This document shows positions 11,122-64,000 of a stretch of DNA of 64,000 nucleotides, piece by piece. The notes under the pieces were generated by a model. That model was given only the letters and a program-made list of their open reading frames with translations, did not search any database and was not told the DNA's origin. The position numbers and the translations under genes were made by a program. Source of the DNA: Macrostomum lignano (taxonomy: Eukaryota); contig NIVC01002523.1 in the NCBI GenBank assembly GCA_002269645.1, forward strand, positions 1 to 64,000, given 5' to 3'. Positions within the stretch are counted from its first letter, which is position 1; the number at the start of each line of letters is the position of its first letter.

Positions 11122-14100
11122 TGGCGGTGGAGGCGGCGGAGGCTGCTGCGGAGGCGGCGGCTGATGTGGCTGTTGCTGTTGCTGCTGCTGTGGAGGTGGA
11201 GGTGGCGGAGGCTGCTGCGGAGGCGGCGGCTGATGTGGCTGTTGCTGTTGCTGCTGCTGTGGCGGTGGAGGCGGCGGAGGCTGCTGAGGCGGTTGCTGGG
11301 GCGGCGGAGGCTGCTGCGCAGGTGACGGTGAAGGCTGGTGGGGCTGCTGTTGCTGCACAGGTTCAGCCTGTTCAGTATGATTTCGCTGCTGTTGCTGAGT
11401 GGGCGGCGGCGGTGGCGGAGCCGCTTTTCTAGGTCGGGCGGGCGAGCTGGCGGGCAGGAAGGCCGTGGCCGGCCGGGCGGCGGGCGGGTCTGGGTGGTAC
11501 CGCGGGCTAAAATTGGCAACGGCGTTAAAAGAAGGGCTGGGTTTAGATACAACACTAATGATGGATTTATTGTGAATGTGATGACGAAACTGAGTAATCA
11601 TCAGTATTGAAAAAATAAACGTGACGCGCGTGCTTAAGTACCCATCTCCGTAGAGTGAAAAGAGGAAGACTTAAAATGCATGTATATTCATAAATCAGCT
11701 GAATGACAACCACCACAGTTTAAGGAATTAGCCTACGCATTTGGGAGAAGAGGGGTTTGATCTGGGGCGTGTGTACATTGTGCCTCATGGAGGTTGATCT
11801 GGGGCGTGTGTACATTGTGATTTATGAGGGTTGATCTGGGGCGTGTACATTGTGATTCATGAGGGTTGATCTGGGGCGTGTGTACATTGTGATTTATGAG
11901 GGTTGATCTGGGGCGTGTACATTGATCTGGGGCGTGTACATTGTGATTCATGAGGGTTGATCTGGAGTGTGTACATTGTGATTTATGAGTGTTGATCTGG
12001 GGCGTGTACATTGTGATTCATGAGGGTTGATCTGGGGTGTGTACATTGTGATTTATGAGGGTTGATCTGGAGTGTGTGTACATTGTGATTCATGAGGGTT
12101 GATCTGGAGTGTGTGTACATTGTGATTCATGGGGGTTGATCTGGGGTGTGTACATTGTGATTCATGAGGGTTGATCTGGAGTGTGTACATTGTGATTTAT
12201 GAGGGTTGATCTGGGGTGTGTACATTGTGATTCATGAGGGTTGATCTGGAGTGTGTACATTGTGATTTATGAGGGTTGATCTGGGGTGTGTACATTGTGA
12301 TTCATGAGGGTTGATCTGGAGTGTGTACATTGATTTATGAGGGTTGATCTGGGGTGTGTACATTGTGATTCATGAGGGTTGATCTGGAGTGTGTACATTG
12401 TGATTTATGAGGGTTGATCTGGGGCGTGTGTACAATGTGATTCATGGGGGTTGATCTGGGGTGTGTACATTGTGATTTATGAGGGTTGATCTGGGGTGTG
12501 TGTACAATGTGATTCATGAGGGTTGATCTGGGGTGTGTGTACAATGTGATTCATGGGGTTGATCTGGGATGTGTACAATGTGATTCATGGGTTTGATCTG
12601 GGGTGTGTGTACAATGTGATTCATGAGGGTTGATCTGGGGTGTGTACATTGTGATTTATGAGGGTTGATCTGGGGTGTGTGTACAATGTGATTCATGAGG
12701 GTTGATCTGGGGTGTGTGTACAATGTGATTCATGAGGGTTGATCTGGGGTGTGTGTACATTGTGATTCATGGGGTTGATCTGGGATGTGTACAATGTGAT
12801 TCATGGGTTTGATCTGGGGTGTGTGTACAATGTGATTCATGAGGGTTGATCTGGGGTGTGTGTACATTGACTGATAAAAATTTACTTCAGTACAAAAACG
12901 CTTCGTATTATTTTCAAATCGAAAACTCATTAAGCTCTACACGTCTGTATGCACGAAAATTAATCCAGATCTAGCTATTTTTTAGCAAATGTCTAATGGA
13001 CTGCGAGATTTAATGCATTTTTAAGTGAATGAAAAATATACACAGATACCCTACTAAGCTACTCTACTCATGCAAATCGCCCTTAAATGTAAGCAAAAAT
13101 AGAATAATTCAAACCATTGTGACAGTACACTGAGCAGCCATTTACCAGGTAGGGAGGAAATTGTATAATAAAAAGAACAGTAAATTAGAAAAGTGAGCCA
13201 GTGAGGCATCGCATTTGAACTGATTTTGAGTACGGCTAGTTGTTTGTCTAAAAATAATTATACAATCGTACACATATTTTAGTTGCTGAAGCCGGTGAAC
13301 ATTCAATCTCATGCTGTTGTTGCTGCTGTTCGCCGGTGATGCTGCTGCAGGAAAATCAATTGAAAAACTGTCAAAACATGCTGTCCCATGCATTTTGGGG
13401 TGATAACGGTCCAACTTGGCTACTGACTGGCTTCGTCAGTAGTAGCCATAGATTAGTGCCTTTAAAATCATCTACTAAACGAATTCGTTCTTGTGTATCT
13501 AACCAGATCTTTCTCATTAATTTTTTTGTCAAAAAAGTTTGTTAAAGTAGAATTATTGAAAAAATATGGAAATTTTAATGAATTGGTTGACGCTGGTTCT
13601 TAGACAAAAAAGTTCAATGCACGCCCAAATTTTTGTTTAGGATTTCATTCGATTATTTTCGTCTACAAAAACCGAACTATTTTAAAAAAATAGCTAGTAA
13701 TTAAATGTGAAAAAATGATTCAAAATTTATCAGTAAATATTGGAATCGGCGAATTACTCTTTACGAAATAATTTGATAGGAAACTGATGCAATAGCTATC
13801 TGATATATTTATAGCATTATAGTGGACCCAGTTATTGAACTAGCAACCATATTGTGTGACAAAAGAATGCAGGTAAGGCAATCAAAGAAATTCTGTTTGG
13901 CCGAACCGGTTAATTTTCAGACTGCCTTTGGACTTGAGCTTGCCGACCAAATGGCTGATGCTATTCTTCCTGTCGGGATTGTAAATGCAAAGCAACGCGC
14001 ATTTGCGCTGATTAGGAAGCCATTGACTGTCCGGTGCTGATAGTCAATCAAAATCTAGTGGGAAACTGTCAACAATCTGACTTGTAGTAAACTCCAGTCA

Positions 14101-17100
14101 CCAATCTACTGACTTGTGAACTCCAGTCACCAATCTACTGACTTTTGAACTCCAGTCACCATCCAATCTACTGACTTGTGAACTCCAGTCACCAATCTAC
14201 TGACTTGTGAACTCCAGTCACCATCCAATCTACTGACTTGTGAACTCCAGTCACCAATCTACTGACTTTTGAACTCCAGTCACCAATCTACTGACTTGTG
14301 AACTCCAGTCACCAATCTACTGACTTTTGAACTCCAGTCACCAATCTACTGACTTGTGAACTCCAGTCACCAATCTACTGACTTGTGAACTCCAGTCACC
14401 AATCTACTGACTTGTGAACTCCAGTCACCATCCAATCTACTGACTTGTGAACTCCAGTCACCAATCTACTGACTTGTGAACTCCAGTCACCATCCAATCT
14501 ACTGACTTGTGAACTCCAGTCACCAATCTACTGACTTTTGAACTTCAGTCACCAATCTACTGACTTGTGAACTCCAGTCACCAATCTACTGACTTGTGAA
14601 CTTCAGTCACCAATCTACTGACTTGTGAACTCCAGTCACCAATCTACTGACTTGTGAACTCCAGTCACCAATCTACTGACTTGTGAACTCCAGTCACCAT
14701 CCAATCTACTGACTTGTGAACTCCAGTCACCAATCTACTGACTTTTGAACTCCAGTCACCATCCAATCTACTGACTTGTGAACTCCAGTCACCAATCTAC
14801 TGACTTGTGAACTCCAGTCACCATCCAATCTACTGACTTGTGAACTCCAGTCACCAATCTACTGACTTTTGAACTCCAGTCACCAATCTACTGACTTGTG
14901 AACTCCAGTCACCAATCTACTGACTTGTGAACTTCAGTCACCAATCTACTGACTTGTGAACTCCAGTCACCATCCAATCTACTGACTTGTGAACTCCAGT
15001 CACCAATCTACTGACTTGTGAACTTCAGTCACCAATCTACTGACTTGTGAACTCCAGTCACCATCCAATCTACTGACTTGTGAACTTCAGTCACCAATCT
15101 ACTGACTTGTGAACTCCAGTCACCATCCAATCTACTGACTTGTGAACTCCAGTCACCAATCTACTGACTTGTGAACTCCAGTCACCATCCAATCTACTGA
15201 CTTGTGAACTCCAGTCACCAATCTACTGACTTTTGAACTCCAGTCACCATCCAATCTACTGACTTGTGAACTCCAGTCACCAATCTACTGACTTGTGAAC
15301 TCCAGTCACCATCCAATCTACTGACTTGTGAACTCCAGTCACCAATCTACTGACTTTTGAACTCCAGTCACCAATCTACTGACTTGTGAACTCCAGTCAC
15401 CAATCTACTGACTTGTGAACTTCAGTCACCAATCTACTGACTTGTGAACTCCAGTCACCATCCAATCTACTGACTTGTGAACTCCAGTCACCAATCTACT
15501 GACTTTTGAACTCCAGTCACCAATCTACTGACTTGTGAACTCCAGTCACCAATCTACTGACTTGTGAACTTCAGTCACCAATCTACTGACTTGTGAACTC
15601 CAGTCACCAATCTACTGACTTGTGAACTTCAGTCACCAATCTACTGACTTTTGAACTCCAGTCACCAATCTACTGACTTGTGAACTCCAGTCACCAATCT
15701 ACTGACTTTGAACTTCAGTCACCAATCTACTGACTTGTGAACTCCAGTCACCATCCAATCTACTGACTTGTGAACTCCAGTCACCAATCTACTGACTTTT
15801 GAACTCCAGTCACCAATCTACTGACTTGTGAACTCCAGTCACCAATCTACTGACTTGTGAACTTCAGTCACCAATCTACTGACTTGTGAACTTCAGTCAC
15901 CAATCTACTGACTTGTGAACTCCAGTCACCAATCTACTGACTTTTGAACTCCAGTCACCAATCTACTGACTTGTGAACTCCAGTCACCATCCAATCTACT
16001 GACTTGTGAACTCCAGTCACCAATCTACTGACTTGTGAACTCCAGTCACCATCCAATCTACTGACTTGTGAACTTCAGTCACCAATCTACTGACTTTTGA
16101 ACTCCAGTCACCAATCTACTGACTTGTGAACTCCAGTCACCAATCTACTGACTTGTGAACTTCAGTCACCAATCTACTGACTTTTGAACTCCAGTCACCA
16201 ATCTACTGACTTGTGAACTCCAGTCACCAATCTACTGACTTTTGAACTCCAGTCACCATCCAATCTACTGACTTGTGAACTCCAGTCACTAATCTACTGA
16301 CTTTTGAACTTCAGTCACCAATCTACTGACTTGTGAACTCCAGTCACCATTCAATCTACTGACTTGTGAACTTCAGTCACCAATCTACTGACTTTTGAAC
16401 TCCAGTCACCAATCTACTGACTTGTGAACTCCAGTCACCAATCTACTGACTTGTGAACTCCAGTCACCAATCTACTGACTTTGAACTCCAGTCACCATCC
16501 AATCTACTGACTTGTGAACTCCAGTCACCATCCAATCTACTGACTTGTGAACTCCAGTCACCAATCTACTGACTTGTGAACTCCAGTCACCAATCTACTG
16601 ACTTGTGAACTCCAGTCACCAATCTACTGACTTGTGAACTTCAGTCACCAATCTACTGACTTGTGAACTCAGTCACCAATCTACTGACTTGTGAACTCCA
16701 GTCACCAATCTACTGACTTGTGAACTCCAGTCACCAATCTACTGACTTGTGAACTCCAGTCACCAATCTACTGACTTGTGAACTCCAGTCACCAATCTAC
16801 TGACTTGTGAACTCCAGTCACCATCCAATCTACTGACTTGTGAACTCCAGTCACCAATCTACTGACTTGTGAACTCCAGTCACCATCCAATCTACTGACT
16901 TGTGAACTCCAGTCACCATCCAATCTACTGACTTGTGAACTCCAGTCACCAATCTACTGACTTGTGAACTCCAGTCACCAATCTACTGACTTGTGAACTC
17001 CAGTCACCAATCTACTGACTTGTGAACTCCAGTCACCAATCTACTGACTTGTGAACTCCAGTCACCAATCTACTGACTTGTGAACTCCAGTCACCAATCT

Positions 17101-20100
17101 ACTGACTTGTGAACTCCAGTCACCAATCTACTGACTTGTGAACTCCAGTCACCAATCTACTGACTTGTGAACTCCAGTCACCAATCTACTGACTTGTGAA
17201 CTCCAGTCACCAATCTACTGACTTGTGAACTCCAGTCACCAATCTACTGACTTGTGAACTCCAGTCACCAATCTACTGACTTGTGAACTCCAGTCACCAA
17301 TCTACTGACTTGTGAACTCCAGTCACCAATCTACTGACTTGTGAACTCCAGTCACCAAATCTACTGACTTGTGAACTCCAGTCACCAATCTACTGACTTG
17401 TGAACTCCAGTCACCAAATCTACTGACTTGTGAACTCCAGTCACCAATCTACTGACTTGTGAACTCCAGTCACCAATCTACTGACTTGTGAACTCCAGTC
17501 ACCAATCTACTGACTTGTGAACTCAGTCACCAATCTACTGACTTGTGAACTCCAGTCACCAAATCTACTGACTTGTGAACTCCAGTCACCAATCTACTGA
17601 CTTGTGAACTCCAGTCACCAATCTACTGACTTGTGAACTCCAGTCACCAATCTACTGACTTGTGAACTCAGTCACCAATCTACTGACTTGTGAACTCCAG
17701 TCACCAATCTACTGACTTGTGAACTCCAGTCACCAATCTACTGACTTGTGAACTCCAGTCACCATCCAATCTACTGACTTGTGAACTCCAGTCACCAATC
17801 TACTGACTTGTGAACTCCAGTCACCATCCAATCTACTGACTTGTGAACTCCAGTCACCAATCTACTGACTTGTGAACTCCAGTCACCATCCAATCTACTG
17901 ACTTGTGAACTCCAGTCACCAATCTACTGACTTGTGAACTCCAGTCACCAATCTACTGACTTGTGAACTCCAGTCACCAATCTACTGACTTGTGAACTCA
18001 GTCACCAATCTACTGACTTGTGAACTCCAGTCACCAATCTACTGACTTGTGAACTCCAGTCACCAATCTACTGACTTGTGAACTCCAGTCACCAATCTAC
18101 TGACTTGTGAACTCCAGTCACCAATCTACTGACTTGTGAACTCCAGTCACCAATCTACTGACTTGTGAACTCCAGTCACCAATCTACTGACTTGTGAACT
18201 TCCAGTCACCAATCTACTGACTTGTGAACTCCAGTCACCAATCTACTGACTTGTGAACTCCAGTCACCAATCTACTGACTTTGAACTCCAGTCACCAATC
18301 TACTGACTTGTGAACTCCAGTCACCAATCTACTGACTTGTGAACTCCAGTCACCAATCTACTGACTTGTGAACTCCAGTCACCAATCTACTGACTTGTGA
18401 ACTCCAGTCACCAATCTACTGACTTGTGAACTCCAGTCACCAATCTACTGACTTTGAACTCCAGTCACCAATCTACTGACTTGTGAACTCCAGTCACCAA
18501 TCTACTGACTTTTGAACTCCAGTCACCAATCTACTGACTTGTGAACTCCAGTCACCAATCTACTGACTTGTGAACTCCAGTCACCAATCTACTGACTTGT
18601 GAACTCCAGTCACCAAATCTACTGACTTGTGAACTCAGTCACCAATCTACTGACTTGTGAACTTCAGTCACCAATCTACTGACTTGTGAACTCCAGTCAC
18701 CAATCTACTGACTTGTGAACTTCAGTCACCAATCTACTGACTTGTGAACTCCAGTCACCAATCTACTGACTTGTGAACTTCAGTCACCAATCTACTGACT
18801 TTTGAACTCCAGTCACCAATCTACTGACTTGTGAACTCCAGTCACCAATCTACTGACTTTTGAACTTCAGTCACCAATCTACTGACTTGTGAACTCCAGT
18901 CACCAAATCTACTGACTTGTGAACTTCAGTCACCAATCTACTGACTTTGAACTCCAGTCACCAATCTACTGACTTGTGAACTCCAGTCACCAATCTACTG
19001 ACTTGTGAACTCAGTCACCAATCTACTGACTTGTGAACTCCAGTCACCAATCTACTGACTTGTGAACTTCAGTCACCAATCTACTGACTTTTGAACTCCA
19101 GTCACCAATCTACTGACTTGTGAACTCCAGTCACCAATCTACTGACTTTTGAACTCCAGTCACCAATCTACTGACTTGTGAACTCCAGTCACCAATCTAC
19201 TGACTTGTGAACTCAGTCACCAATCTACTGACTTGTGAACTCCAGTCACCAATCTACTGACTTGTGAACTCCAGTCACCATCCAATCTACTGACTTGTGA
19301 ACTCCAGTCACCAATCTACTGACTTGTGAACTCCAGTCACCATCCAATCTACTGACTTGTGAACTCCAGTCACCAATCTACTGACTTGTGAACTCCAGTC
19401 ACCATCCAATCTACTGACTTGTGAACTCCAGTCACCAATCTACTGACTTTGAACTCCAGTCACCAATCTACTGACTTGTGAACTCCAGTCACCAATCTAC
19501 TGACTTGTGAACTTCAGTCACCAATCTACTGACTTGTGAACTCCAGTCACCAAATCTACTGACTTGTGAACTCCAGTCACCAATCTACTGACTTGTGAAC
19601 TCCAGTCACCAATCTACTGACTTGTGAACTCCAGTCACCATCCAATCTACTGACTTGTGAACTTCAGTCACCAATCTACTGACTTGTGAACTCCAGTCAC
19701 CATCCAATCTACTGACTTGTGAACTCCAGTCACCAATCTACTGACTTGTGAACTCCAGTCACCATCCAATCTACTGACTTGTGAACTCCAGTCACCAATC
19801 TACTGACTTGTGAACTCCAGTCACCAAATCTACTGACTTGTGAACTCCAGTCACCAATCTACTGACTTGTGAACTCCAGTCACCATCCAATCTACTGACT
19901 TGTGAACTCCAGTCACCAATCTACTGACTTTGAACTCCAGTCACCAATCTACTGACTTGTGAACTCCAGTCACCAATCTACTGACTTGTGAACTTCAGTC
20001 ACCAATCTACTGACTTGTGAACTCCAGTCACCAAATCTACTGACTTGTGAACTCCAGTCACCAATCTACTGACTTTTGAACTCCAGTCACCAATCTACTG

Positions 20101-23100
20101 ACTTGTGAACTCCAGTCACCAATCTACTGACTTGTGAACTTCAGTCACCAATCTACTGACTTGTGAACTCCAGTCACCAATCTACTGACTTGTGAACTCA
20201 GTCACCAATCTACTGACTTTTGAACTCCAGTCACCAATCTACTGACTTGTGAACTCCAGTCACCAATCTACTGACTTGTGAACTTCAGTCACCAATCTAC
20301 TGACTTGTGAACTCCAGTCACCAATCTACTGACTTGTGAACTCCAGTCACCAATCTACTGACTTTGAACTCCAGTCACCAATCTACTGACTTGTGAACTC
20401 CAGTCACCAATCTACTGACTTGTGAACTTCAGTCACCAATCTACTGACTTTGAACTCCAGTCACCAATCTACTGACTTGTGAACTCCAGTCACCAATCTA
20501 CTGACTTTGAACTCCAGTCACCAATCTACTGACTTGTGAACTCCAGTCACCAATCTACTGACTTGTGAACTCCAGTCACCAATCTACTGACTTGTGAACT
20601 CCAGTCACCATCCAATCTACTGACTTGTGAACTCAGTCACCAATCTACTGACTTTGAACTCCAGTCACCAATCTACTGACTTGTGAACTCCAGTCACCAA
20701 TCTACTGACTTGTGAACTTCAGTCACCAATCTACTGACTTTTGAACTCCAGTCACCAATCTACTGACTTGTGAACTTCAGTCACCAATCTACTGACTTTT
20801 GAACTCCAGTCACCAATCTACTGACTTGTGAACTCCAGTCACCAATCTACTGACTTTTGAACTTCAGTCACCAATCTACTGACTTGTGAACTCCAGTCAC
20901 CAAATCTACTGACTTGTGAACTTCAGTCACCAATCTACTGACTTTTGAACTCCAGTCACCAATCTACTGACTTGTGAACTCCAGTCACCAATCTACTGAC
21001 TTGTGAACTTCAGTCACCAATCTACTGACTTTGAACTCCAGTCACCAATCTACTGACTTGTGAACTTCAGTCACCAATCTACTGACTTTGAACTCCAGTC
21101 ACCAATCTACTGACTTGTGAACTCCAGTCACCAATCTACTGACTTTTGAACTCCAGTCACCAATCTACTGACTTGTGAACTCCAGTCACCAATCTACTGA
21201 CTTGTGAACTCCAGTCACCAATCTACTGACTTGTGAACTCCAGTCACCAATCTACTGACTTGTGAACTCCAGTCACCAAATCTACTGACTTGTGAACTCC
21301 AGTCACCAATCTACTGACTTGTGAACTCAGTCACCAATCTACTGACTTGTGAACTCCAGTCACCATCCAATCTACTGACTTGTGAACTTCCAGTCACCAA
21401 TCTACTGACTTGTGAACTCCAGTCACCATCCAATCTACTGACTTGTGAACTCCAGTCACCAATCTACTGACTTGTGAACTCCAGTCACCATCCAATCTAC
21501 TGACTTGTGAACTCCAGTCACCAATCTACTGACTTTGAACTCCAGTCACCATCCAATCTACTGACTTGTGAACTCCAGTCACCAATCTACTGACTTGTGA
21601 ACTCCAGTCACCATCCAATCTACTGACTTGTGAACTCCAGTCACCAATCTACTGACTTGTGAACTCCAGTCACCATCCAATCTACTGACTTGTGAACTCA
21701 GTCACCAATCTACTGACTTTGAACTCCAGTCACCAATCTACTGACTTGTGAACTCCAGTCACCAATCTACTGACTTGTGAACTTCAGTCACCAATCTACT
21801 GACTTTTGAACTCCAGTCACCAATCTACTGACTTGTGAACTTCAGTCACCAATCTACTGACTTTTGAACTCCAGTCACCAATCTACTGACTTGTGAACTC
21901 CAGTCACCAATCTACTGACTTTGAACTTCAGTCACCAATCTACTGACTTGTGAACTCCAGTCACCAAATCTACTGACTTGTGAACTTCAGTCACCAATCT
22001 ACTGACTTTGAACTCCAGTCACCAATCTACTGACTTGTGAACTTCAGTCACCAATCTACTGACTTGTGAACTTCAGTCACCAATCTACTGACTTTGAACT
22101 CCAGTCACCAATCTACTGACTTGTGAACTTCAGTCACCAATCTACTGACTTTTGAACTCCAGTCACCAATCTACTGACTTGTGAACTCCAGTCACCAATC
22201 TACTGACTTTTGAACTCCAGTCACCAATCTACTGACTTGTGAACTCCAGTCACCAATCTACTGACTTGTGAACTCCAGTCACCAATCTACTGACTTGTGA
22301 ACTCCAGTCACCAATCTACTGACTTGTGAACTCCAGTCACCAATCTACTGACTTGTGAACTCCAGTCACCAATCTACTGACTTGTGAACTCCAGTCACCA
22401 ATCTACTGACTTGTGAACTTCAGTCACCAATCTACTGACTTGTGAACTCCAGTCACCAATCTACTGACTTGTGAACTTCAGTCACCAATCTACTGACTTT
22501 GAACTCCAGTCACCAATCTACTGACTTGTGAACTCCAGTCACCATCCAATCTACTGACTTGTGAACTCCAGTCACCAATCTACTGACTTGTGAACTCCAG
22601 TCACCAATCTACTGACTTTTGAACTCCAGTCACCAATCTACTGACTTTTGAACTCCAGTCACCAATCTACTGACTTGTGAACTTCAGTCACCAATCTACT
22701 GACTTTTGAACTCCAGTCACCAATCTACTGACTTCTATCAGACTGTCACACACATGTGGATATCTCAGTTGAGTAGGTAATTGCCTAGCCATCCATTGCT
22801 AACCTCGAAAATATTTGCTTATTTCGCGCAGGAAATCTAAATAAAGCCATTTAAAAAAAACAGAAAAAGGGAAAAATAGTTGCACAAATCCTTTTCTTCT
22901 ATTCTAGGCAGACGATGACGCCTTTCTTAAACTATTTATAAAGTCATCTCTCCCTGGCTAAAAACCAATATTTAATCATTTCGACCACTGAGAACTAATC
23001 GAGCAGAGATTAGCTGGGCACAGCTGGTTAAAAGCAAAAGAAAATTGCGCAATTATTTTTTAACTCTCTGTTTAACCGATGCAGCTCCAGCAGAGAAAAA

Positions 23101-48386: not shown

Positions 48387-55811
<7,425 letters not shown>

Positions 55812-56324
55812 GGCGCTCTTCTTTGTAGAATATCGTTGAGCAATGATGACGCAGGAGGCAGTTTTGAGTAAATTTAGCTTGATATCTTGCCCTCTGTCGA
55901 GCCTTACGCGAGACTTTATGAGACTTAGGGCGCCATATTATTACAATAAGTTCTATATTGAACAGGAGCTTTGCACAAGCAGTGCAGAATCGCAGGGCTT
56001 CGTTTGAGAGGCAAAGAAAGGGGGGGGGGGTAAATGGTAGTAGGTTTTTCTCTCTGTCTGTCTATCCTACTCTACTCTAGCTCCTATTGTTAAATTACAT
56101 CCGACCCTCCTCCTGGTCAGAAGTGTACTCAGTGGGTGGATAGTGCAAGCCAACTAGCTGCATTCGACATCCTTGTTTTTAATAAGGGTTTAAAAAGCTA
56201 GAGCGAGCAATTAAAAATAGCTAACATCCAGGATGCTATTAGCTCAGGCTATGCTCGCACAATACGCTTAAGGCTACTCCGAGCAGAAGAACAAGTGCTG
56301 GAGCAATGCCCAATGAAATTGTGA

Positions 56325-56788
56325 TCTAGATAGAGATGGATTGGGATTTAGATAGAGATGGATTGGGATTTAGATAGAGATGGATTGGGATTTAGATAGA
56401 GATGGATTGGGATTTAGATAGAGATGAGATTGGGATTTAGATAGAGATGGATTGGGATTTAGATAGAGATGGATTGGGATTTAGATAGAGATGGATTGGG
56501 ATTTAGATAGAGATGGATTGGGATTTAGATAGAGATGGATTGGGATTTAGATAGAGATGGATTGGGATTTAGATAGAGATGGATTGGGATTTAGATAGAG
56601 ATGGATTGGGATTTAGATAGAGATGGATTGGGATTTAGATAGAGATGGATTGGGATTTAGATAGAGATGAGATTGGGATCTAGATAGAGATGAAATTGTG
56701 ATCTAGATAGAGATGGATTGGGATCTAGATACAGATGAAATTGTGATCTAGATAGAGATGGATTGGGATTTAGATAGAGATGAGATTG
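56325..56788. repeat. 22-bp minisatellite (GATAGAGATGGATTGGGATTTA)
   Basis: About 21 units, related in sequence to the 23-mer at 53878. Confidence 0.96.
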
Positions 56789-57042
56789 GAGTATGGAGTA
56801 TGGACCATAAGTATGGAGTAGTCATTAACGATTACGACAGCTATTATAACTTTGCAGAAATCATTAGGCAATTGTAGTTGCCAACTACGAGGTTGTACCT
56901 TGTAGAGTGTGGACGTAAGTTCTAAAAATAAAACCCATGCCATGTGTTCCACACATGCTTTCCAATCTCTTTCCGCTTTGGCAACCCCAATCAACCATTA
57001 ATAGAAAATCATACCTATAAATAGAAAATCTGCAGGTTCCCC

Positions 57043-57122
57043 TTCTAGAATTCGAATTCTAGAATATTCTAGAACAAAAAGAGAATCCATGGATTCCCGA
57101 GCCCACACCAATGGTATATATA
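57043..57122 (+). promoter_or_regulatory. Heat-shock element (perfect TTCnnGAAnnTTCnnGAA at 57057-57074, plus TTCnnGAA at 57043-57050) followed by CCAAT (57108) and TATATATA (57115-57122)
   Basis: The sequence matches the HSF nGAAn inverted-array consensus, and its spacing to the TATA box is typical of heat-shock promoters. Confidence 0.65.
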
Positions 57123-57205
57123 CAGCCGATTCACACCGCCCCTCGCCCCACCTGCTCCGCCCGACTCGCCCTGCCTCGCCTAGCCTCACCTTGCTCTCTT
57201 CTGTC

Positions 57206-58081
57206 ATGAATTCGAAGGTGAAACAGCAGCCGACAAAAATTATCGATACAATTAAAAGTATCAGTAGCAAAGACATCGCAAGCACGGCTGTCGCGATTGC
57301 CGCCATTAACGAAGAGGAGCAGGCCTCACTGTTTGAATGCTTGCAAAAAATCGATCGTGAATCGTTGAAAAAAGAGAAATCCGACGAGGCCAAGCGCTCC
57401 AGTAATGACAAGGAGCGCCGAGAAGCACGCTTCATAGCGCGTCTAAAAGAAAGTCTCAAAAAATTAAAAATGAGCAGATTGACATCAAGACGCGGTAAGT
57501 TTTTTTGCTTATTCTATTATTTGCAATCCTTGACTTGGTTAAAACGTGATTTAAATTACTTAAGGCTTTTATGATTTCTTGAAAGCGAAACATATTTTAC
57601 ATTATGATTCCATGTTATTGCTTTTTTTAGTTTCTACAACGCTAAAGCGTTATGCTTGGCCGATGTTCAAACGGATGTGGACGGAATGTTGACGCAGTTC
57701 GCCAGTTTAGAGTCCTTCATTGGGGACTTGGAGGTGCTCACCTGTCTGGCGAGAAAAAAGCAGGCGGAGATCCTCGCGTCTATTAAGACCCAAGGTCTCT
57801 CAACAGAAGGAGCCGCCAAGCGACTGGACATCGACCCCAAGTTCGCCGAACGATTGTACACCTTCCATGGGTTCATCACGAAGTACCCGAATTTAGTCTT
57901 CTCCGGGTACTCGTTCGAGTCGCTGCTCACATACAAAAGAGCGATCGAGAAAGAGGCGGAGCAGGACGACAACTTCTGCTGCAAGTTGGAGACCGATATT
58001 ACCATCGTGTTTCAAGGAGAGGACGAGGACGCCTTGCTGGAGGAGACTACGATGGAGTTGGAGACTGCATCAGTCGACTAA
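57206..58081 (+). CDS. Polinton accessory gene(s): coiled-coil ORF (57206-~57494) and acidic ORF with an HTH-like segment (~57631-58081), probably joined by an intron
   Basis: Coding-like codons; donor G|GTAAGT at 57494/5 and a poly-T acceptor at ~57630. The phases differ by one base, so the exact junction is unresolved. Confidence 0.55.
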
Positions 58082-58153
58082 GCCAAGGATGAATAAACTA
58101 AGCAAATTGTAACGTAAAAAATTTCATCCTGTTATTTTACCTTGAAAACTAGT

Positions 58154-58493
58154 TTACATTGATAAAATCCTGAAAAAAAATCCTGGAAAAAAATCCTGGA
58201 GATCCAGGAAAGTGTTTAGAAGACTACTATGAGTAGCTTACATTGATAAAATCCTGGAAAAAAATCCTGGAAAAAAATCCTGGAGATCCAGGAAAGTGTT
58301 TAGAAGACTACTATGAGTGGCTTACATTGATAAAATCCTGGAAAAAAATCCTGGAGATCCAGGAAAGTGTTAGAAGACTACTATGAGTAGCCCACATTGA
58401 TAAAATCCTGGAAAAAATCCTGGAAAAAAATCCTGGAGATCCAGGAAAGTGTTTAGAATTTTTTCGAAGCTAAGCCTACTCATAGTAGTTTTC
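58154..58493. repeat. ~84-bp tandem repeat (~3.8 copies) with internal palindrome TCCTGGAGATCCAGGA, followed by an inverted partial copy (58473-58493)
   Basis: Units start at 58154, 58238, 58322 and ~58392. AGCCTACTCATAGTAGTTTTC is the reverse complement of the unit's GAAGACTACTATGAGTAGCT, with mismatches. Confidence 0.9.
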
Positions 58494-58767
58494 AATGCAA
58501 TAATAACTGAATGAATTAACTAAGCAAATTATTATATGTAACTTTGAACAACTTTGTATTAATGTTTTTTTGCTTATAAACATAAAATAAAATATTTAAC
58601 CAAGCTCTTCACTTATTAAAATTTAATATTGATGAGTCTTTTTTTAAATCCTTCCCGACTCAAGCGTCTCTCTCTACCCCCATATCTTTCAAAAGTCTTC
58701 CCATTTGTTTGTTAGGAGCGCACAAAATAAACCCCGCTCCTGAGCCTCCGCCCTCTCTCCTCGTGCA

Positions 58768-59124
58768 CTAGCCCTCTCTCCCTGTGCACCCGCCCTCGCC
58801 TTCAACCCCCAACCCCAACTTTGTTTTACTAAAAATAACAGCTTTAACTAGCTTCCGAGCGATCGACTCACGAAATCCGCTTGAAGCCCCTATATTGTCT
58901 AGTCTCTTAAGCATTTCTTTGTCCCAGCGATTCTTCTCCTCAGGAAAATCTCTATATTTAACGTCGTGCCACATGCACACAGAGTCTAGCTCGTTCACAG
59001 GCTCATGCCCAGGATTTGGATTATCGTTTGTATCTAGCTGTATTTCAAGTGGATTCAAAGGCCCGCAATATTTGTACCCGGAAAGTGTCCAGCCTTTGTT
59101 TGGATGAGGAAGCTTTTCTATCAT
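58768..59124 (-). CDS. PLA2X: Parvovirus VP1u-like phospholipase A2 (PLA2X) of adintoviruses/Polintons, 118 aa
   Basis: Ca-binding loop GYKYCGPLN, PVNELDSVCMWHD with the catalytic HD, and C-terminal KTKLGLG. Confidence 0.88.
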   Translation of the reverse strand: MIEKLPHPNKGWTLSGYKYCGPLNPLEIQLDTNDNPNPGHEPVNELDSVCMWHDVKYRDFPEEKNRWDKEMLKRLDNIGASSGFRESIARKLVKAVIFSKTKLGLGVEGEGGCTGREG

Positions 59125-59204: not shown

Positions 59205-60242
59205 ATGACAGATCAGAAACTTAAAAAACTCTACTACAGCGACAAAGGATTCTTTGTAGGAAAAAATGCAGTCACCAAACTCGCAGAACTAAGCAAGGAA
59301 CCAAAAGATAGAGTAGAAAAGTGGCTCTCTAAGCAGGCTGTCTTTCAAGTCTATTTCCCACCAGTAAAATTTACAAGACCTCGCTTTAGCATCTATAAAC
59401 CTAATGAAGCGCACCAAGCAGATCTTTTGTTTCTCCCCAATGACTCGGGCTACAAGTATGCTCTCACAATTACAGACGTTGCCTCCAGATATAAGGAAGC
59501 TCGCCCACTCAAGACGAAGAAGTCAGAGGTTGTTGCCAGCGCACTGCAAGATATTTATAAAAACTCACCCCTTAGTTACCCTGAAATGTTCATGACCGAC
59601 CCGGGTAAGGAATTCATGGGTGCAGTGAAATCCCTTATGGAAAAGCACAATACAGAGATTCGCTATGGCAGAACAAACTTGCACAGAGACCAAGCGTACG
59701 TTGAGAGATTCAATCTAACTCTAGCCAAGAGGCTATTCACTAAGCAGACAGCTGAGGAGCTGAAACTAAAAAGTGGTCAGTACTATTCAAAATGGACAGA
59801 CCGGCTCCCCACTGTTATAGAGCAACTGAACAATGAAGTCACACGTATGACTGGATTGAAACCGTCCCATGCAATTAAACAAGACACTGTCGAACTTAAG
59901 TCATCTCATAAAACAGACAACAACACGACAACCCCACACAACACACACAACACAAAACACACCTCGAACTACCCTAAGCTTCCAGGAGTTGAATCACCAT
60001 ACATACTGACAAACTCTGAGTTTCTACGCTTTTTATATCTACCTGGAGAGCTAGAGAAAGACACCAAAAGAAGAGCTACAGATCCATACTTCAGCCTTGA
60101 TGTACATAAAATAGACAGACATTTTACCTCCGACTCCAGTGACTATTACTTTTTATCTCAGGCCTTTAACCCTAAATCCCCCACACGGTCATTCACTAGA
60201 GCTGAACTCCTAGTGATACCAGCTGACACGGAAATTAATTAA
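59205..60242 (+). CDS. int: Retroviral-like (rve, DDE) integrase of the Polinton
   Basis: AHQADL (D), MTDPGKEF (D) and QAYVERFN (E) in an intact frame. ATG at 59205 is in frame with the track ORF at 59166. Confidence 0.95.
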   Translation: MTDQKLKKLYYSDKGFFVGKNAVTKLAELSKEPKDRVEKWLSKQAVFQVYFPPVKFTRPRFSIYKPNEAHQADLLFLPNDSGYKYALTITDVASRYKEARPLKTKKSEVVASALQDIYKNSPLSYPEMFMTDPGKEFMGAVKSLMEKHNTEIRYGRTNLHRDQAYVERFNLTLAKRLFTKQTAEELKLKSGQYYSKWTDRLPTVIEQLNNEVTRMTGLKPSHAIKQDTVELKSSHKTDNNTTTPHNTHNTKHTSNYPKLPGVESPYILTNSEFLRFLYLPGELEKDTKRRATDPYFSLDVHKIDRHFTSDSSDYYFLSQAFNPKSPTRSFTRAELLVIPADTEIN

Positions 60243-60259
60243 AATATTAAAATAAAAAA

Positions 60260-60718
60260 ATGACAAAGATTGAAACCAGAACCATCAATAAACTCAATAA
60301 AATCATTGAATCAAAGAAACCAGGTCTTATTTCAATTAAAGGTGTCAAAGTAAAAATCGATCCCACGCAGCAAATAGTTGAGTGTAATGAGCAAAGCCAC
60401 AGTATCACAGATGAAAAGTCAGGAGGAATCCTACCATTAGCAGCTCTTATTCCGATCATTGCAGGCGCTGTAAGTGCCGCAGGTGGTGTAGCTGGAGGTG
60501 TAGCAACTGCTGTTAAAGCTGGGAATGATAGAGCCCACCAGCTAGAATTGCAAAAGATTGCAAGAGATAAAGGTATAACAATTAAGGCAGGAGATGGTTG
60601 CCCTGAGGGCTGCCCCGATCGTGATGATTTTGAGCATGAAAATTCTGTAAGCAAGTCTGACATTGTCAAAGCCATCATGACACTGCACAATGCTGGGTTT
60701 ACAATAATGCGCATGTGA
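60260..60718 (+). CDS. Adenovirus protein X (pX/mu-precursor)-like virion core protein, 152 aa
   Basis: GGILPLAALIPIIAGAVSAAGGVAGGVA resembles the adenoviral pX C-terminal GGILPLLIPLIAAAIGAVPGIA segment. Confidence 0.6.
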   Translation: MTKIETRTINKLNKIIESKKPGLISIKGVKVKIDPTQQIVECNEQSHSITDEKSGGILPLAALIPIIAGAVSAAGGVAGGVATAVKAGNDRAHQLELQKIARDKGITIKAGDGCPEGCPDRDDFEHENSVSKSDIVKAIMTLHNAGFTIMRM

Positions 60719-60839: not shown

Positions 60840-63800
60840 AAACTGCCAAAAGCCAATCCAGCAAGAGATTTAGTCAACAAATATTTTTCAAAAGGCGTCT
60901 CATTTCAAGACAAAAGTAATTTACTAAGAGAAGCATGTAAACAAACGTTTAACACAGACCCTGGTCACCTGGGAAGCTATGAAAAACAGTTGGAAATCAT
61001 CAATCAATTAGAATCCAACCAGTATGCGCCTATAAAAAATTCTGCAAAGGAACACCAAGAGAGGAGTCGCAACTTAGTTAACAAATACGAAACTCTCACT
61101 GGTGAAAAAGCAAAGTACCCACAAAATAAGCAGGAACAAGAGAAATTAGAGCAATTAATCCATTTAAAAGAGTCGGAGCTTGCCATTGAAGAGATTAATT
61201 TTGCACAGAGGAAGTTTACAGAACATTACATAGAGTACACAATCCCAATTAAGGATACCACCGCAAACATCTACGACTATAAAGACAGCATCCAATCAGT
61301 TGTTGATCACACACTCAAAACACGCAAGACCTTTAAACTACAGATATCATTCAAGATTGCGTTTTATATGCCTGCAAAACCCACTGAGCATCTGAGTATT
61401 ACATGACAACAAAAAAGCCATTCACCCCTACTGACACACTGGATCCTTTCCTTCAAGATGTCACTAAGAAAATTGAAGCGTTTACATCCAGAGGTTCCGG
61501 ATGGGTCGTGGGAGGGATTCAAAGAGCGACTGTCATGGTCATGAAATATGACCCACTTAAAGCCTCCTCTTATATAGAGCTCCCGCATAAGCTAGCCGGC
61601 AAAAAAGCTTGCATAAATGTTAAAAATAAAGACAATTGCTGTGCTCTATGGGCAGTTCTTTCTGCACTTCTTCATGATAGTGTCCCTCACCACCCCGAAA
61701 GAACCTCAAATTATCAAAATTATTTCAACTACTATCTCATCGAATGCGAAAAAAAGGGAATCAGGTTTGAAAAAAGGAGGCTTGGCGATCTCTCAGATCC
61801 CAAAGCTAGAAGAAGTGTTTAATAACAAAATTAGAATCACAGTCTTTGAGTGGAGTGAAAAAACTGAGAACGTTCAACTGGTCAGATGTAGCAAAGACGT
61901 TTTAGATCCTGAGGGGAAAAGGCGGATTGAAGTAAGATCTTCTAGTGATTGGTAATTTACTAGAGGAGGCTCACTATGTTTGGATTAAAGATCTTTCAAG
62001 ACTCATTCACGAGCAGTTGAATAATCATCACGAGGCTGTTGCCATCTGCCGCTTGTGCCTTAAGCATTACAGTGGACCTGAACGCTTTGAAAAACTAGCA
62101 GAGCATGAATTATCATGCGAGGATCACCCAACAAACTGCTCTCTTCCTTCAGCTGAAGAGAAATATCTCCGGTTTAAGAACTATCACAAGATGGAGAAGC
62201 TCCCATTTGTTGTATATGCTGATTTCGAATGCTCAATCATGCCAGAAACTCAAAAACAAACTCAAACTCAAAACATGTCCCCAATTCAGTAGCATATGCC
62301 TTTATTAATACAAAAGGACTTGTTGAGTATAATTATTTCTTTGGAGAGCAGTGTGTGGAGCAGTTTATTGCCAGAATGTTAGAGTTGCAAAGAGTGATTA
62401 GCACCCTTCAACCTGTTCCAATAATGATGACTGAGGAGGATGAAAGTAATTTCCTATCAGCAACTCATTGCCACATCTGCAGGAAACATTTAACTTGCAC
62501 TAATATTAAAAACCCCACCGTTAGGGACCACTGCCACTTTACTGGGAAATTTAGAGGTGCAGCGCATAACACCTGTAATCTAAAGCTAAAATCGAACATT
62601 CATGATCTAACGATATTTTGTCACAACGCAAAGAACTATGACATGCATTTAATAGTTGAAAAAATCGGCATGATTCCAGACATACACCTTGACTGCATCG
62701 CAGAGAACAAGGAGAAGTTTAAGTGTGTTGATATTAAACAGGATAATTCGGGTACAGGTAAAATAAGACTGAAGGATTCATATCAATTTCTAGCTGCCAG
62801 TCTAGACGAACTAAGCAAGAATCTAAAAGATGAACAATGTACATATACAAAGATGTTTGCAAGTAAAATTAACAACAGTGATGAATCATTTAAACTCCTG
62901 AGAACCAAAGGCTTCTACCCCTATGAAAATATTACTGGGTATCACGTATTTGAAGAAGGTTTACCACCACAGGAGAAGTTCTTTTCAAAGCTAACAGACT
63001 CTGGAATCTCTGACAAAGACTATGAGCACGCGAAGCATGTCTATAATTACTTTAATTGTCAAAACTTCTTCCAGTATCACCTGCTTTACCTCTACACAGA
63101 TGTGTTTCTGCTGGCTGATGTGTTTGAAACCTTCAGATACACCTGGTACACAGCATATGGCCTCGATCCAGCACATTATGTGTCTCTGCCTGCCACTAGC
63201 TGGGAATCTTTGCTTAAAATGAAATGGGATCAAGATCCAGATTGGTACATTGAACTTCTTACAGACATTGACATGTACAATTTTGTCGAATCGTCAAAGC
63301 GAGGGGGATCTCAATTTGCACATAGGTATGCAAAAGCAAACAATCCCTACATTGAATCTTACAATAAGGAGCAGCCCTCAAACTACATTACTTACTTGGA
63401 CGCTAATAATCTCTACGGGTGGGCGATGAGTCAAGATCTTCCAGTTAGAGATTTTCGATGGCTACCCTCATCAGAATTCAAACGGACTTTTCATTGGCTG
63501 CCATTTATGAAGTTGATGTTTACATTCCACCAGAGCTTCACGACTATTTCTCTGACTTTCCACCCTTCCCAGAGAACATCAAGTGCCCGAAAATAATCGA
63601 AACTCCCAATGATAATAATGGAACTTGGCACCTGTCAGGAACAGAAAAAGAACATACAGAAAACTAACACAGAATCTAAACAACAAGACACGTTACAAAA
63701 TCCATTACAAACTGCTTCAGTATTTTATCTCACTTGGTTGCAGGGTCACCAAAGTTCACAGGGCTCTTACATTTACAGAGGAAGCGTGGATGAAACCCTA

Positions 63801-64000
63801 CATTGATAAGAACACCCAGTTTAGGACCAAAGCAACCAACGACTTTGACAAGAACCTCTTTAAGTTGGCCAACAACTCTGTCTATGGCAAGACTCTTGAG
63901 AATGAGCGGAAAAGAACAAACCTGAAACTTGTTACCTCATCAGAGCCTGCTGTTATTCAGGCAAATATGTCAAAGCCAACATTCAAAGAACTCCATATCT
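60840..64000 (+). CDS. polB: Protein-primed family B DNA polymerase with an endonuclease-VII-like insert; six 1-nt frameshifts; 3' end outside the window
   Basis: RGSGW...SYIELP...INVKNKD..C, HYVWIKDLSRL, ExoI YADFE, CHIC...VRDHCHFTGKFRGAAH..CNL, ExoII HNAKNYD, ExoIII YLYTD, PolA YLDANNLYGWAM and PolB FKLANNSVYGK. Frameshifts near 61390, 61772, 61935, 62272, 63483 and 63662; no in-frame nonsense codon after correction. The 5' start is uncertain (acceptor-like TTTTAG at ~60832). Confidence 0.93.

What the first reader, a model, noticed from the sequence alone, without database searches (positions are those of the whole stretch)
57043..57122. Perfect heat-shock element and TATA box at the start of an endogenous adintovirus/Polinton
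Seen: TTCTAGAATATTCTAGAA (four perfect alternating nGAAn units, 57057-57074) overlaps a perfect 22-bp palindrome (57043-57064). It lies 41 bp upstream of TATATATA and ~130 bp before the ATG of the element's first ORF, which has an HTH-like partner exon. Established: this is canonical HSF1 promoter architecture, and heat-responsive transposons exist (e.g. ONSEN in Arabidopsis). Inference: host proteotoxic stress may switch on a regulator of the integrated virus, a prophage-like stress induction in an animal. I do not know of this being described for Polintons.
Basis: partly seen in the sequence, partly recalled or inferred. Interest (0 to 1): 0.75.

Follow-up and report, generated by a model that had tools for sequence, protein, structure and literature searches.

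The report
Heat-shock promoter on flatworm Polinton arm
A perfect heat-shock-factor site and TATA box sit in front of a spliced, multicopy gene next to the core genes of an integrated Polinton virus in a flatworm (likely Macrostomum lignano), so heat likely switches that gene on, but nothing here shows that it wakes the virus.

Summary
The motif is real: the only four-unit HSE in 64 kb (1 of 100 shuffles), 40 bases before a TATA box and 132 before a two-exon gene whose splice is seen in RNA-like contigs. The gene's closest relatives are Macrostomum lignano proteins, with at least six near-identical copies. Sister variants keep the HSE: 0 of 24 trimer positions vary, 3 of 9 spacers do, and the TATA variant stays canonical (weak statistics, 39 rows hidden). 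In this species HSE-bearing LTR retrotransposons are strongly heat-induced (PMC12801592), so the promoter likely works. The neighbours (PLA2, rve integrase, pX, protein-primed PolB) are an adintovirus-type Polinton. Verdict: likely a heat-inducible accessory cassette acquired by a Polinton, a known transposon trick on a new carrier; prophage-like induction is untested (about 0.15).

The parts
56318..56789 (.). 22-bp tandem satellite, host flank on the left
   Evidence: TRF period 22, 21.2 copies
56817..56822 (+). AGTAGT, candidate (AGT)2 left end of the Polinton; not proven
   Evidence: motif as in PMC8097293; but other copies continue left with related, not random, sequence (table 7)
56830..56875 (.). 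segment shared with much more abundant repeat families
   Evidence: summed contig depth 20880 (X20) and 6545 (X16) against about 70-460 over ORF1; several kinds of loose ends at 56874-56877
57043..57064 (.). perfect 22-bp palindrome; holds an extra TTC-GAA pair out of register with the main HSE
57057..57074 (.). perfect four-unit heat-shock element
   Evidence: listed sister differences only at spacer positions 57061, 57065, 57075
57083..57096 (.). 14-bp palindrome with one GAA and one TTC, out of HSE register; role unknown
57115..57122 (+). TATA box (TATAWAWR)
   Evidence: the common sister variant at 57121 still fits TATAWAWR
57206..57494 (+). ORF1 exon 1 (helical N-terminus and long basic coiled helix); frame broken near its 3' end in the window
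   Evidence: none of the 4 runs shows the window's form as its main one (table 4)
57495..57630 (+). 136-bp GT..AG intron
   Evidence: joint in 1 X5 contig with 184 letters on the short side; matching loose ends in X1
57631..58081 (+). ORF1 exon 2, predicted HTH domain with ParB/KorB-like DNA-binding fold
58150..58458 (.). 84-bp repeat array with 14 copies of the palindrome TCCWGGA
58768..59124 (-). parvovirus-type phospholipase A2 domain gene (adintovirus PLA2X-like)
   Evidence: PF08398 E 4e-13
59205..60242 (+). rve integrase, open frame
   Evidence: PF00665 E 3e-9; 1563 relatives
60260..60718 (+). protein X-like core protein gene
   Evidence: PF05829 E 1.7e-6
61430..64000 (+). protein-primed DNA polymerase B with endonuclease VII-like zinc domain; several frame breaks; runs off the window
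   Evidence: PF03175 E 5.5e-11, PF02945 E 1.3e-4; tblastn pieces in three frames

Best explanation
The HSE-TATA block is likely a heat-shock-factor-driven promoter for ORF1, a spliced gene for a predicted HTH DNA-binding protein, and the cassette likely travels in the left arm of a Macrostomum Polinton family that acquired it separately from its core genes. Shown: the motif, its spacing, the splice, several copies, retention of the HSE in sister variants, the identity of the neighbours. Inferred: on heat, host HSF binds the four in-phase units (room for a trimer plus cooperative binding; established HSF biology, recalled), transcription starts about 30 bases after the TATA box, the 136-bp intron is removed and a roughly 246-residue protein is made from unbroken copies. 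The output is one early, stress-timed protein; integrase, pX and PolB lie 2-4 kb on, behind a polyadenylation signal, a repeat array and a convergent gene, so they would not be read directly from this promoter. What ORF1 binds is a guess: the 14 TCCWGGA palindromes just downstream are the nearest candidates.
For: Only four-unit HSE in 64 kb. Sister variants: 0 of 24 trimer positions and 3 of 9 spacer positions among listed differences (Fisher p 0.015; four-unit part alone 0 of 12 against 3 of 8, p 0.049); one X16 contig spans 56915-57105 with 7 differences, all upstream of 57040; the TATA variant stays canonical while an upstream TATA-like site at 57016 is changed in some copies. Overlapping contigs tile from 56848 through the HSE into exon 1 in X5 (table 8). 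Splice seen in runs of two studies. Five UniRef proteins in one 90% cluster plus one more at 90%. Same species: 4 of 6 HSE-bearing LTR families induced (log2FC 6.3-9.1), the two uninduced had one HSE, and HSE mutation abolished a reporter. For inclusion in the Polinton: (AGT)2 motif 240 bases upstream; no inverted copy of the left-end segment between ORF1 and PLA2; a 20-bp 19/20 direct repeat (58089, 58511) ties ORF1's 3' region across the only other AGTAGT. One PF03175+PF02945 transcript is up after heat (log2FC 2.8, baseMean 4.4, padj 0.01), not tied to this family.
Against: No heat data could be tied to ORF1 (no id mapping). Conservation is weak against the local background (P of 0 in 24 at 8.8% is 0.11), the test was chosen after seeing the table, and 39 of 79 difference rows were hidden. 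Depth at the TATA segment in X16 (678) exceeds that at the HSE (210), so some copies may share the TATA without this HSE. ORF1 GC3 0.65 and CpG o/e 1.27 against 0.39 and 0.50 for the core (Fisher 7e-13), and it has an intron, whereas vertebrate Maverick core genes are intronless. 81 related Polinton loci (446 kb, few known to reach an end) hold 7 three-unit HSEs against 8.9 expected, no four-unit HSE and no ORF1 homologue. Other copies continue left of 56816 with related sequence, not with unrelated flanks. Another PF03175 transcript is down after heat (log2FC -1.6). Canonical HSEs were not enough for 2 of 6 LTR families.
Confidence: 0.5

Rival explanations
1. The HSE-ORF1 cassette is heat-inducible but belongs to a separate multicopy element (or host gene family) lying beside the Polinton or interrupted by it; the Polinton begins after about 58.5 kb or has lost its end.
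For: Host-like GC3 and no CpG depletion; intron; ORF1 family found only as Macrostomum proteins and unnamed records, 14 clusters, none in 81 Polinton loci; 56830-56875 is shared with other abundant repeats whose left flanks resemble each other.
Against: No second terminal repeat between ORF1 and PLA2, and the 58089/58511 duplication spans the alternative AGTAGT; only 690 bases separate the two stop codons; accessory regions are usual in these elements.
Confidence: 0.27
2. Prophage-like switch: HSF turns on ORF1, which activates replication and virion genes, so stress induces the integrated virus.
For: First gene of the arm, predicted HTH, nearby palindrome array; one Polinton-type PolB transcript up after 2 h of heat; D. 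subobscura Polinton-1 rose slightly after heat, under 2-fold; mavirus shows that kin elements can be reactivated, though by a giant virus.
Against: No direct evidence; the PolB signal is tiny, unassigned and matched by one going down; ORF1 looks foreign to the core; coral polintovirus expression grouped by colony, not by heat treatment, without replicates; this copy's PolB is broken as assembled.
Confidence: 0.15
3. The block is not a working HSE: it is a palindromic protein-binding or hairpin site in the terminal region, or a silenced promoter.
For: Two overlapping perfect palindromes and a third nearby; predicted DNA hairpin -7.5 kcal/mol for 57036-57100 (no shuffle control); spliced ORF1 contigs occur in runs not known to be heat-treated.
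Against: Sister differences at 57061 and 57065 break palindrome symmetry but keep the HSE consensus; palindromy follows from the TTCTAGAA unit; TATA at a usual distance.
Confidence: 0.15
4. The promoter is a solo LTR of one of the worm's known HSE-bearing retrotransposons.
For: Such LTRs exist in this genome and share the TTCTAGAA octamer.
Against: Four short strings from the block were not found in the paper's 5 supplements (long rows are cut and FASTA lines wrap); the LTRs of 4 of 6 families look unrelated by eye; the two Copia LTRs were not seen.
Confidence: 0.04

Closest known systems
HSE-bearing Ty3/Mdg4 LTR retrotransposons of Macrostomum lignano (Mlig-id115, id36, id55, id38; PMC12801592)
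   Same: Same host, canonical HSE shortly upstream of a TATA box inside a mobile element; their heat induction and HSE dependence are shown.
   Different: Here the carrier is a DNA element; the promoter fronts one spliced accessory gene, not the whole genomic transcript; HSE-TATA gap 40 bases against roughly 15 read by eye in those LTRs; induction untested.
ONSEN (Arabidopsis) and Caenorhabditis Helitrons with HSEs (PMC6927752, listing only; both as described in PMC12801592)
   Same: Mobile element recruits host HSF through its own HSEs.
   Different: Neither is a capsid-related DNA virus; both are validated by experiment.
Alpha adintoviruses / Polintons-Mavericks (PMC8502044, PMC8097293)
   Same: PF03175 PolB, rve integrase, PLA2 and pX domains, (AGT)2 motif.
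   Different: PLA2 and pX are separate, opposed ORFs; no HSE or ORF1-like gene in 81 related loci; an intron-bearing, host-like first gene.
Mavirus provirophage (10.1101/068312)
   Same: Integrated Polinton-like element with conditional expression.
   Different: Its trigger is superinfection by a giant virus in a protist; here the proposed trigger is a host stress factor in an animal, and reactivation is not shown.
ParB/KorB/SopB DNA-binding domain
   Same: Best structural matches of exon 2 (8qa8_A Z 6.6, rmsd 3.1, 78 aligned; 1r71_A Z 6.0; 1vz0_A Z 5.8).
   Different: Z under 8, 10-14% identity, no CTPase domain; only a general HTH likeness is safe.

Membership tests
Canonical HSE promoter | three or more alternating nGAAn units | tested here: met
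   four units, 57057-57074
Canonical HSE promoter | proximal to a core promoter of a transcribed gene | tested here: met
   TATA 40 bases on; spliced ORF1 contigs; start site itself not mapped
Canonical HSE promoter | motif kept in sister copies | tested here: inconclusive
   0 of 24 core, 3 of 9 spacer positions vary; p 0.015-0.11 by control; 39 rows hidden
Canonical HSE promoter | HSF binding and heat induction | not testable with these tools
   heat table has no id that maps to ORF1
Polinton/Maverick (alpha adintovirus) | protein-primed PolB (PF03175) | tested here: met
   E 5.5e-11; broken frame as assembled
Polinton/Maverick (alpha adintovirus) | rve integrase | tested here: met
   PF00665 E 3e-9
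Polinton/Maverick (alpha adintovirus) | PLA2 and pX accessory virion domains | tested here: met
   PF08398, PF05829, in two ORFs
Polinton/Maverick (alpha adintovirus) | capsid proteins, packaging ATPase, adenain protease | not testable with these tools
   window ends inside PolB; no genome held
Polinton/Maverick (alpha adintovirus) | N-terminal OTU domain of PolB | not tested
   not looked for specifically; Pfam scan of two upstream pieces gave no such hit
Polinton/Maverick (alpha adintovirus) | [quoted passage not shown] | not testable with these tools
   right end outside the window; depth over the HSE region is about 1.3-4 times that of ORF1 and does not settle whether it lies in a TIR
Polinton/Maverick (alpha adintovirus) | (AGT)2 end motif marking a true terminus left of the HSE | tested here: inconclusive
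   motif at 56817, but related sequence continues leftward in other copies
Polinton/Maverick (alpha adintovirus) | HSE-ORF1 cassette linked to the core in other copies | not testable with these tools
   reads laid only to 58145; composition differs from core
Solo LTR of M. lignano HSE retrotransposons | sequence similarity to the six HSE-bearing LTRs | tested here: inconclusive
   string search blank; 4 of 6 unlike by eye; no alignment run
ParB/KorB-like HTH protein | HTH plus helical DNA-binding fold | tested here: inconclusive
   model pLDDT 85; top rows nearly all HTH proteins, Z up to 6.6; no Foldseek or Pfam hit at threshold

The most novel reading that the evidence does not exclude
An animal Polinton virus has wired itself to the host heat-shock factor: HSF switches on an early HTH regulator that binds the palindrome array and starts the viral programme, a stress-induced provirus switch like prophage induction.
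Probability: 0.15. Interest if true: 0.82.

Novelty: new variant of a known kind. Interest (0 to 1): 0.48.

Why it matters
What turns on endogenous Polintons in animals is open; the one trigger I found shown for a relative is giant-virus superinfection of mavirus. A host stress-factor site on a Polinton arm, in a species with transgenesis and a public heat-shock RNA-seq set, makes that question testable by re-mapping existing reads. If only ORF1 responds, it adds a DNA element to the HSE captures already known in this worm's retrotransposons. If the cassette is a separate element, it points to an undescribed heat-responsive repeat family.

Tried and rejected
No genome for the window, so sister loci could not be read directly. 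Earlier findings of the scan: five answered look-ups by place, sequence and words, all blank. Run search: no holder on record as RNA; 20 of 24 rows hold the stretch. Viral contigs: integrase alone found nothing, the integrase alignment one locus, distant ORF1 relatives none, the left-end 21-mer none; an HSE-plus-TATA pattern gave 4 loci, all inside phage-like coding genes, taken as chance. Weak ORF1-profile hits in the 81 loci (best E 0.05) are charged coiled stretches. Atlas searches gave only unnamed clusters or leads below the bar. Pfam End3 hit on ORF1 is below its cut-off. No Rfam match at 56700-58800. No mapping from Mlig gene ids (Mlig020038, Mlig000052) to the heat table's cluster ids. 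Contig depth was not used as a copy number or expression level. The 161-aa upstream-ATG reading (57089) and the antisense ORF 56998-57435 were set aside: all full-length homologues start at the methionine of 57206. UniRef names of ORF1 relatives are mutually inconsistent and were ignored. Supplements of the bioRxiv version of the heat paper are closed and might carry gene ids that map.

Full report
Observation. The four-unit HSE at 57057-57074 is the only one in the window; shuffles give 0.01 per window (1 of 100). The 22-bp palindrome is the longest in the window, but it is built from the same self-complementary octamer that makes the HSE (three copies: 57043, 57057, 57067), so it adds an out-of-register TTC-GAA pair and no independent evidence. 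TATATATA fits TATAWAWR; a second such match lies upstream at 57016.

Host and neighbours. The exon-2 peptide found 5 proteins among 29 candidates, all labelled Macrostomum lignano, at 49-97% identity, so the host is likely that flatworm. Downstream lie a PLA2-like gene (minus strand), an rve integrase, a protein X-like gene and a PF03175 polymerase with a PF02945 domain, the set that PMC8502044 (passages and section 3.1 read) gives for alpha adintoviruses. The polymerase aligns in pieces over three frames and runs off the window; capsid, ATPase and protease genes and the right end are out of reach, and no genome is held.

The gene under the promoter. ORF1 has two exons. One X5 contig joins 57494 to 57631 across a GT..AG intron, X1 has matching loose ends, and X5 has no cover over most of the intron (both runs are only guessed to be RNA, and the X5 contig carries the letters of a sister copy). 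The window's copy has a frame break near the end of exon 1; UniRef holds proteins of the same type with an unbroken frame, and the four runs differ from the window at single-base runs here and in the intron, so an assembly error is as likely as decay. The family is small: 14 clusters at 50% identity in 1.84 billion proteins, the named ones all M. lignano, several with 4-8 near-identical members. AlphaFold gives a helical N-terminus, a long charged helix and a compact C-terminal domain (pLDDT 84-85). The best structural rows are nearly all HTH proteins, led by KorB, Spo0J, ParB and SopB (Z 5.0-6.6); Foldseek and Pfam give nothing at threshold. 'HTH-like' is moderately supported.

Is the HSE kept in sister copies? 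Contigs of 4 of the 24 listed runs were laid on 56790-58145. Of 79 difference rows 40 were shown; 23 fall in 56876-57160. None touches the 24 GAA/TTC positions; three touch the 9 spacer or edge positions (57061, 57065, 57075; Fisher p 0.015, or 0.049 for the four-unit part; against the local background P is 0.11). The frequent change at 57121 keeps TATAWAWR. One abundant X16 contig spans 56915-57105 with 7 differences, all before 57040. Changes at 57061 and 57065 break the palindromes but not the HSE, which favours HSF over a hairpin.

Is it inside the Polinton? For: AGTAGT at 56817 is the commonest vertebrate Maverick end motif (PMC8097293, passages), a satellite lies to its left, no inverted copy of the left-end segment lies between ORF1 and PLA2, and a 19/20 direct repeat at 58089 and 58511 spans the only other AGTAGT. 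Against: 56830-56875 is shared with far more abundant repeats, and other copies continue left of 56816 with sequence related to each other and to the window, which is not what random insertion flanks give; ORF1 has GC3 0.65 and CpG o/e 1.27, close to a host gene in the window (GC3 0.73) and far from the viral core (0.39, 0.50; p 7e-13); 81 Polinton loci found with the integrase profile hold no ORF1 relative and no excess of HSEs (7 against 8.9 expected), though few are known to reach an end. I put membership at about 0.65. Whether the HSE lies in a TIR is open.

Does it respond to heat? Not testable here. PMC12801592 (parts 1-3 of 6 read; supplement 2 part 1 of 80 plus searches; supplement 5 parts 1 and 7 of 8) shows that in this species 4 of 6 HSE-bearing LTR families rise by log2FC 6.3-9.1 after 2 h at 37 C and that HSE mutation silences a reporter; it does not mention Polintons. 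By its three-unit rule this promoter has two overlapping HSEs. Its table lists two PF03175 transcripts, one up (2.8, baseMean 4.4, with PF02945 as here) and one down (-1.6); neither can be assigned, and ORF1 cannot be found for lack of an id map. I put function of the promoter at about 0.75, which with membership gives 0.5 for the best reading.

Mechanism. Likely HSF binding, transcription from about 30 bases past the TATA box, splicing and a DNA-binding protein. The core genes are separated from this promoter by AATAAA at 58092, an 84-bp array and the convergent PLA2 gene, so any effect on them would have to run through ORF1. The array holds 14 of the window's 18 TCCWGGA palindromes, a candidate target by inference only.

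Novelty. HSE capture by mobile elements is known (ONSEN and Helitron1_CE as described in PMC12801592; PMC6927752 seen as a listing; this worm's LTRs). For Polintons I found no report of an HSE: 'polinton' with 'heat shock element' gave one plant review (listing only), with 'heat shock factor' four papers, two checked by passage; searches added none by title or abstract start. Subscription papers are mostly not searched. Related notes: D. subobscura Polinton-1 rose under 2-fold after heat (PMC10627563, passages); coral polintovirus expression grouped by colony, not treatment (10.1101/2023.10.06.561300, passages); mavirus is reactivated by a giant virus (10.1101/068312, abstract). Also seen: PMC10748475, PMC5730564 and 10.1101/2024.12.18.629116 by passage; PMC5816591 and PMC7806878 by supplement search only.

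Verdict. A real, probably working heat-shock promoter on a multicopy cassette at the arm of a flatworm Polinton: a new carrier for a known trick, cheap to test with public reads. The prophage-like step has no direct support yet. Interest 0.48; 0.82 if the switch is real (about 0.15).

Noticed in passing
window 58089-58530: 84-bp array with 14 TCCWGGA palindromes, bracketed by a 20-bp direct repeat (58089, 58511) and a 10-bp inverted repeat (58142, 58486); possible binding array or duplicated terminator region.
   Followed up: partly
window 56830-56875: A 45-bp segment shared by several very abundant repeat families whose left flanks resemble each other; may be a conserved subterminal motif or a preferred target.
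   Followed up: partly
window 57161-57468: Both DNA-like runs show a contig that skips 306 bases, removing the ATG and most of exon 1 while keeping HSE and TATA: a deletion derivative that would leave a portable heat promoter.
   Followed up: no
window 56872-56970: Some copies carry a tandem duplication or a fold-back rearrangement in this stretch (joints in X16 and X20).
   Followed up: no
proteins P0005, P0023, P0154 (Mlig020038, Mlig000052, Mlig029811/Mlig022297): Several diverged ORF1 subfamilies each have 4-8 near-identical members in M. lignano, suggesting an undescribed mobile gene family.
   Followed up: partly
window 50243-52433: Long single-frame stretch with an ANF-receptor ligand-binding domain (glutamate-receptor-like host gene), used only as a codon-use control.
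   Followed up: no
window 14090-22734: 8.6-kb tandem array of a 29-bp unit (293 copies); the window is dense in minisatellites.
   Followed up: no
window 59920-59960: A low-complexity stretch (TTTPHNTHNTKH) in the integrase, which is about 15 residues longer than most listed relatives.
   Followed up: no
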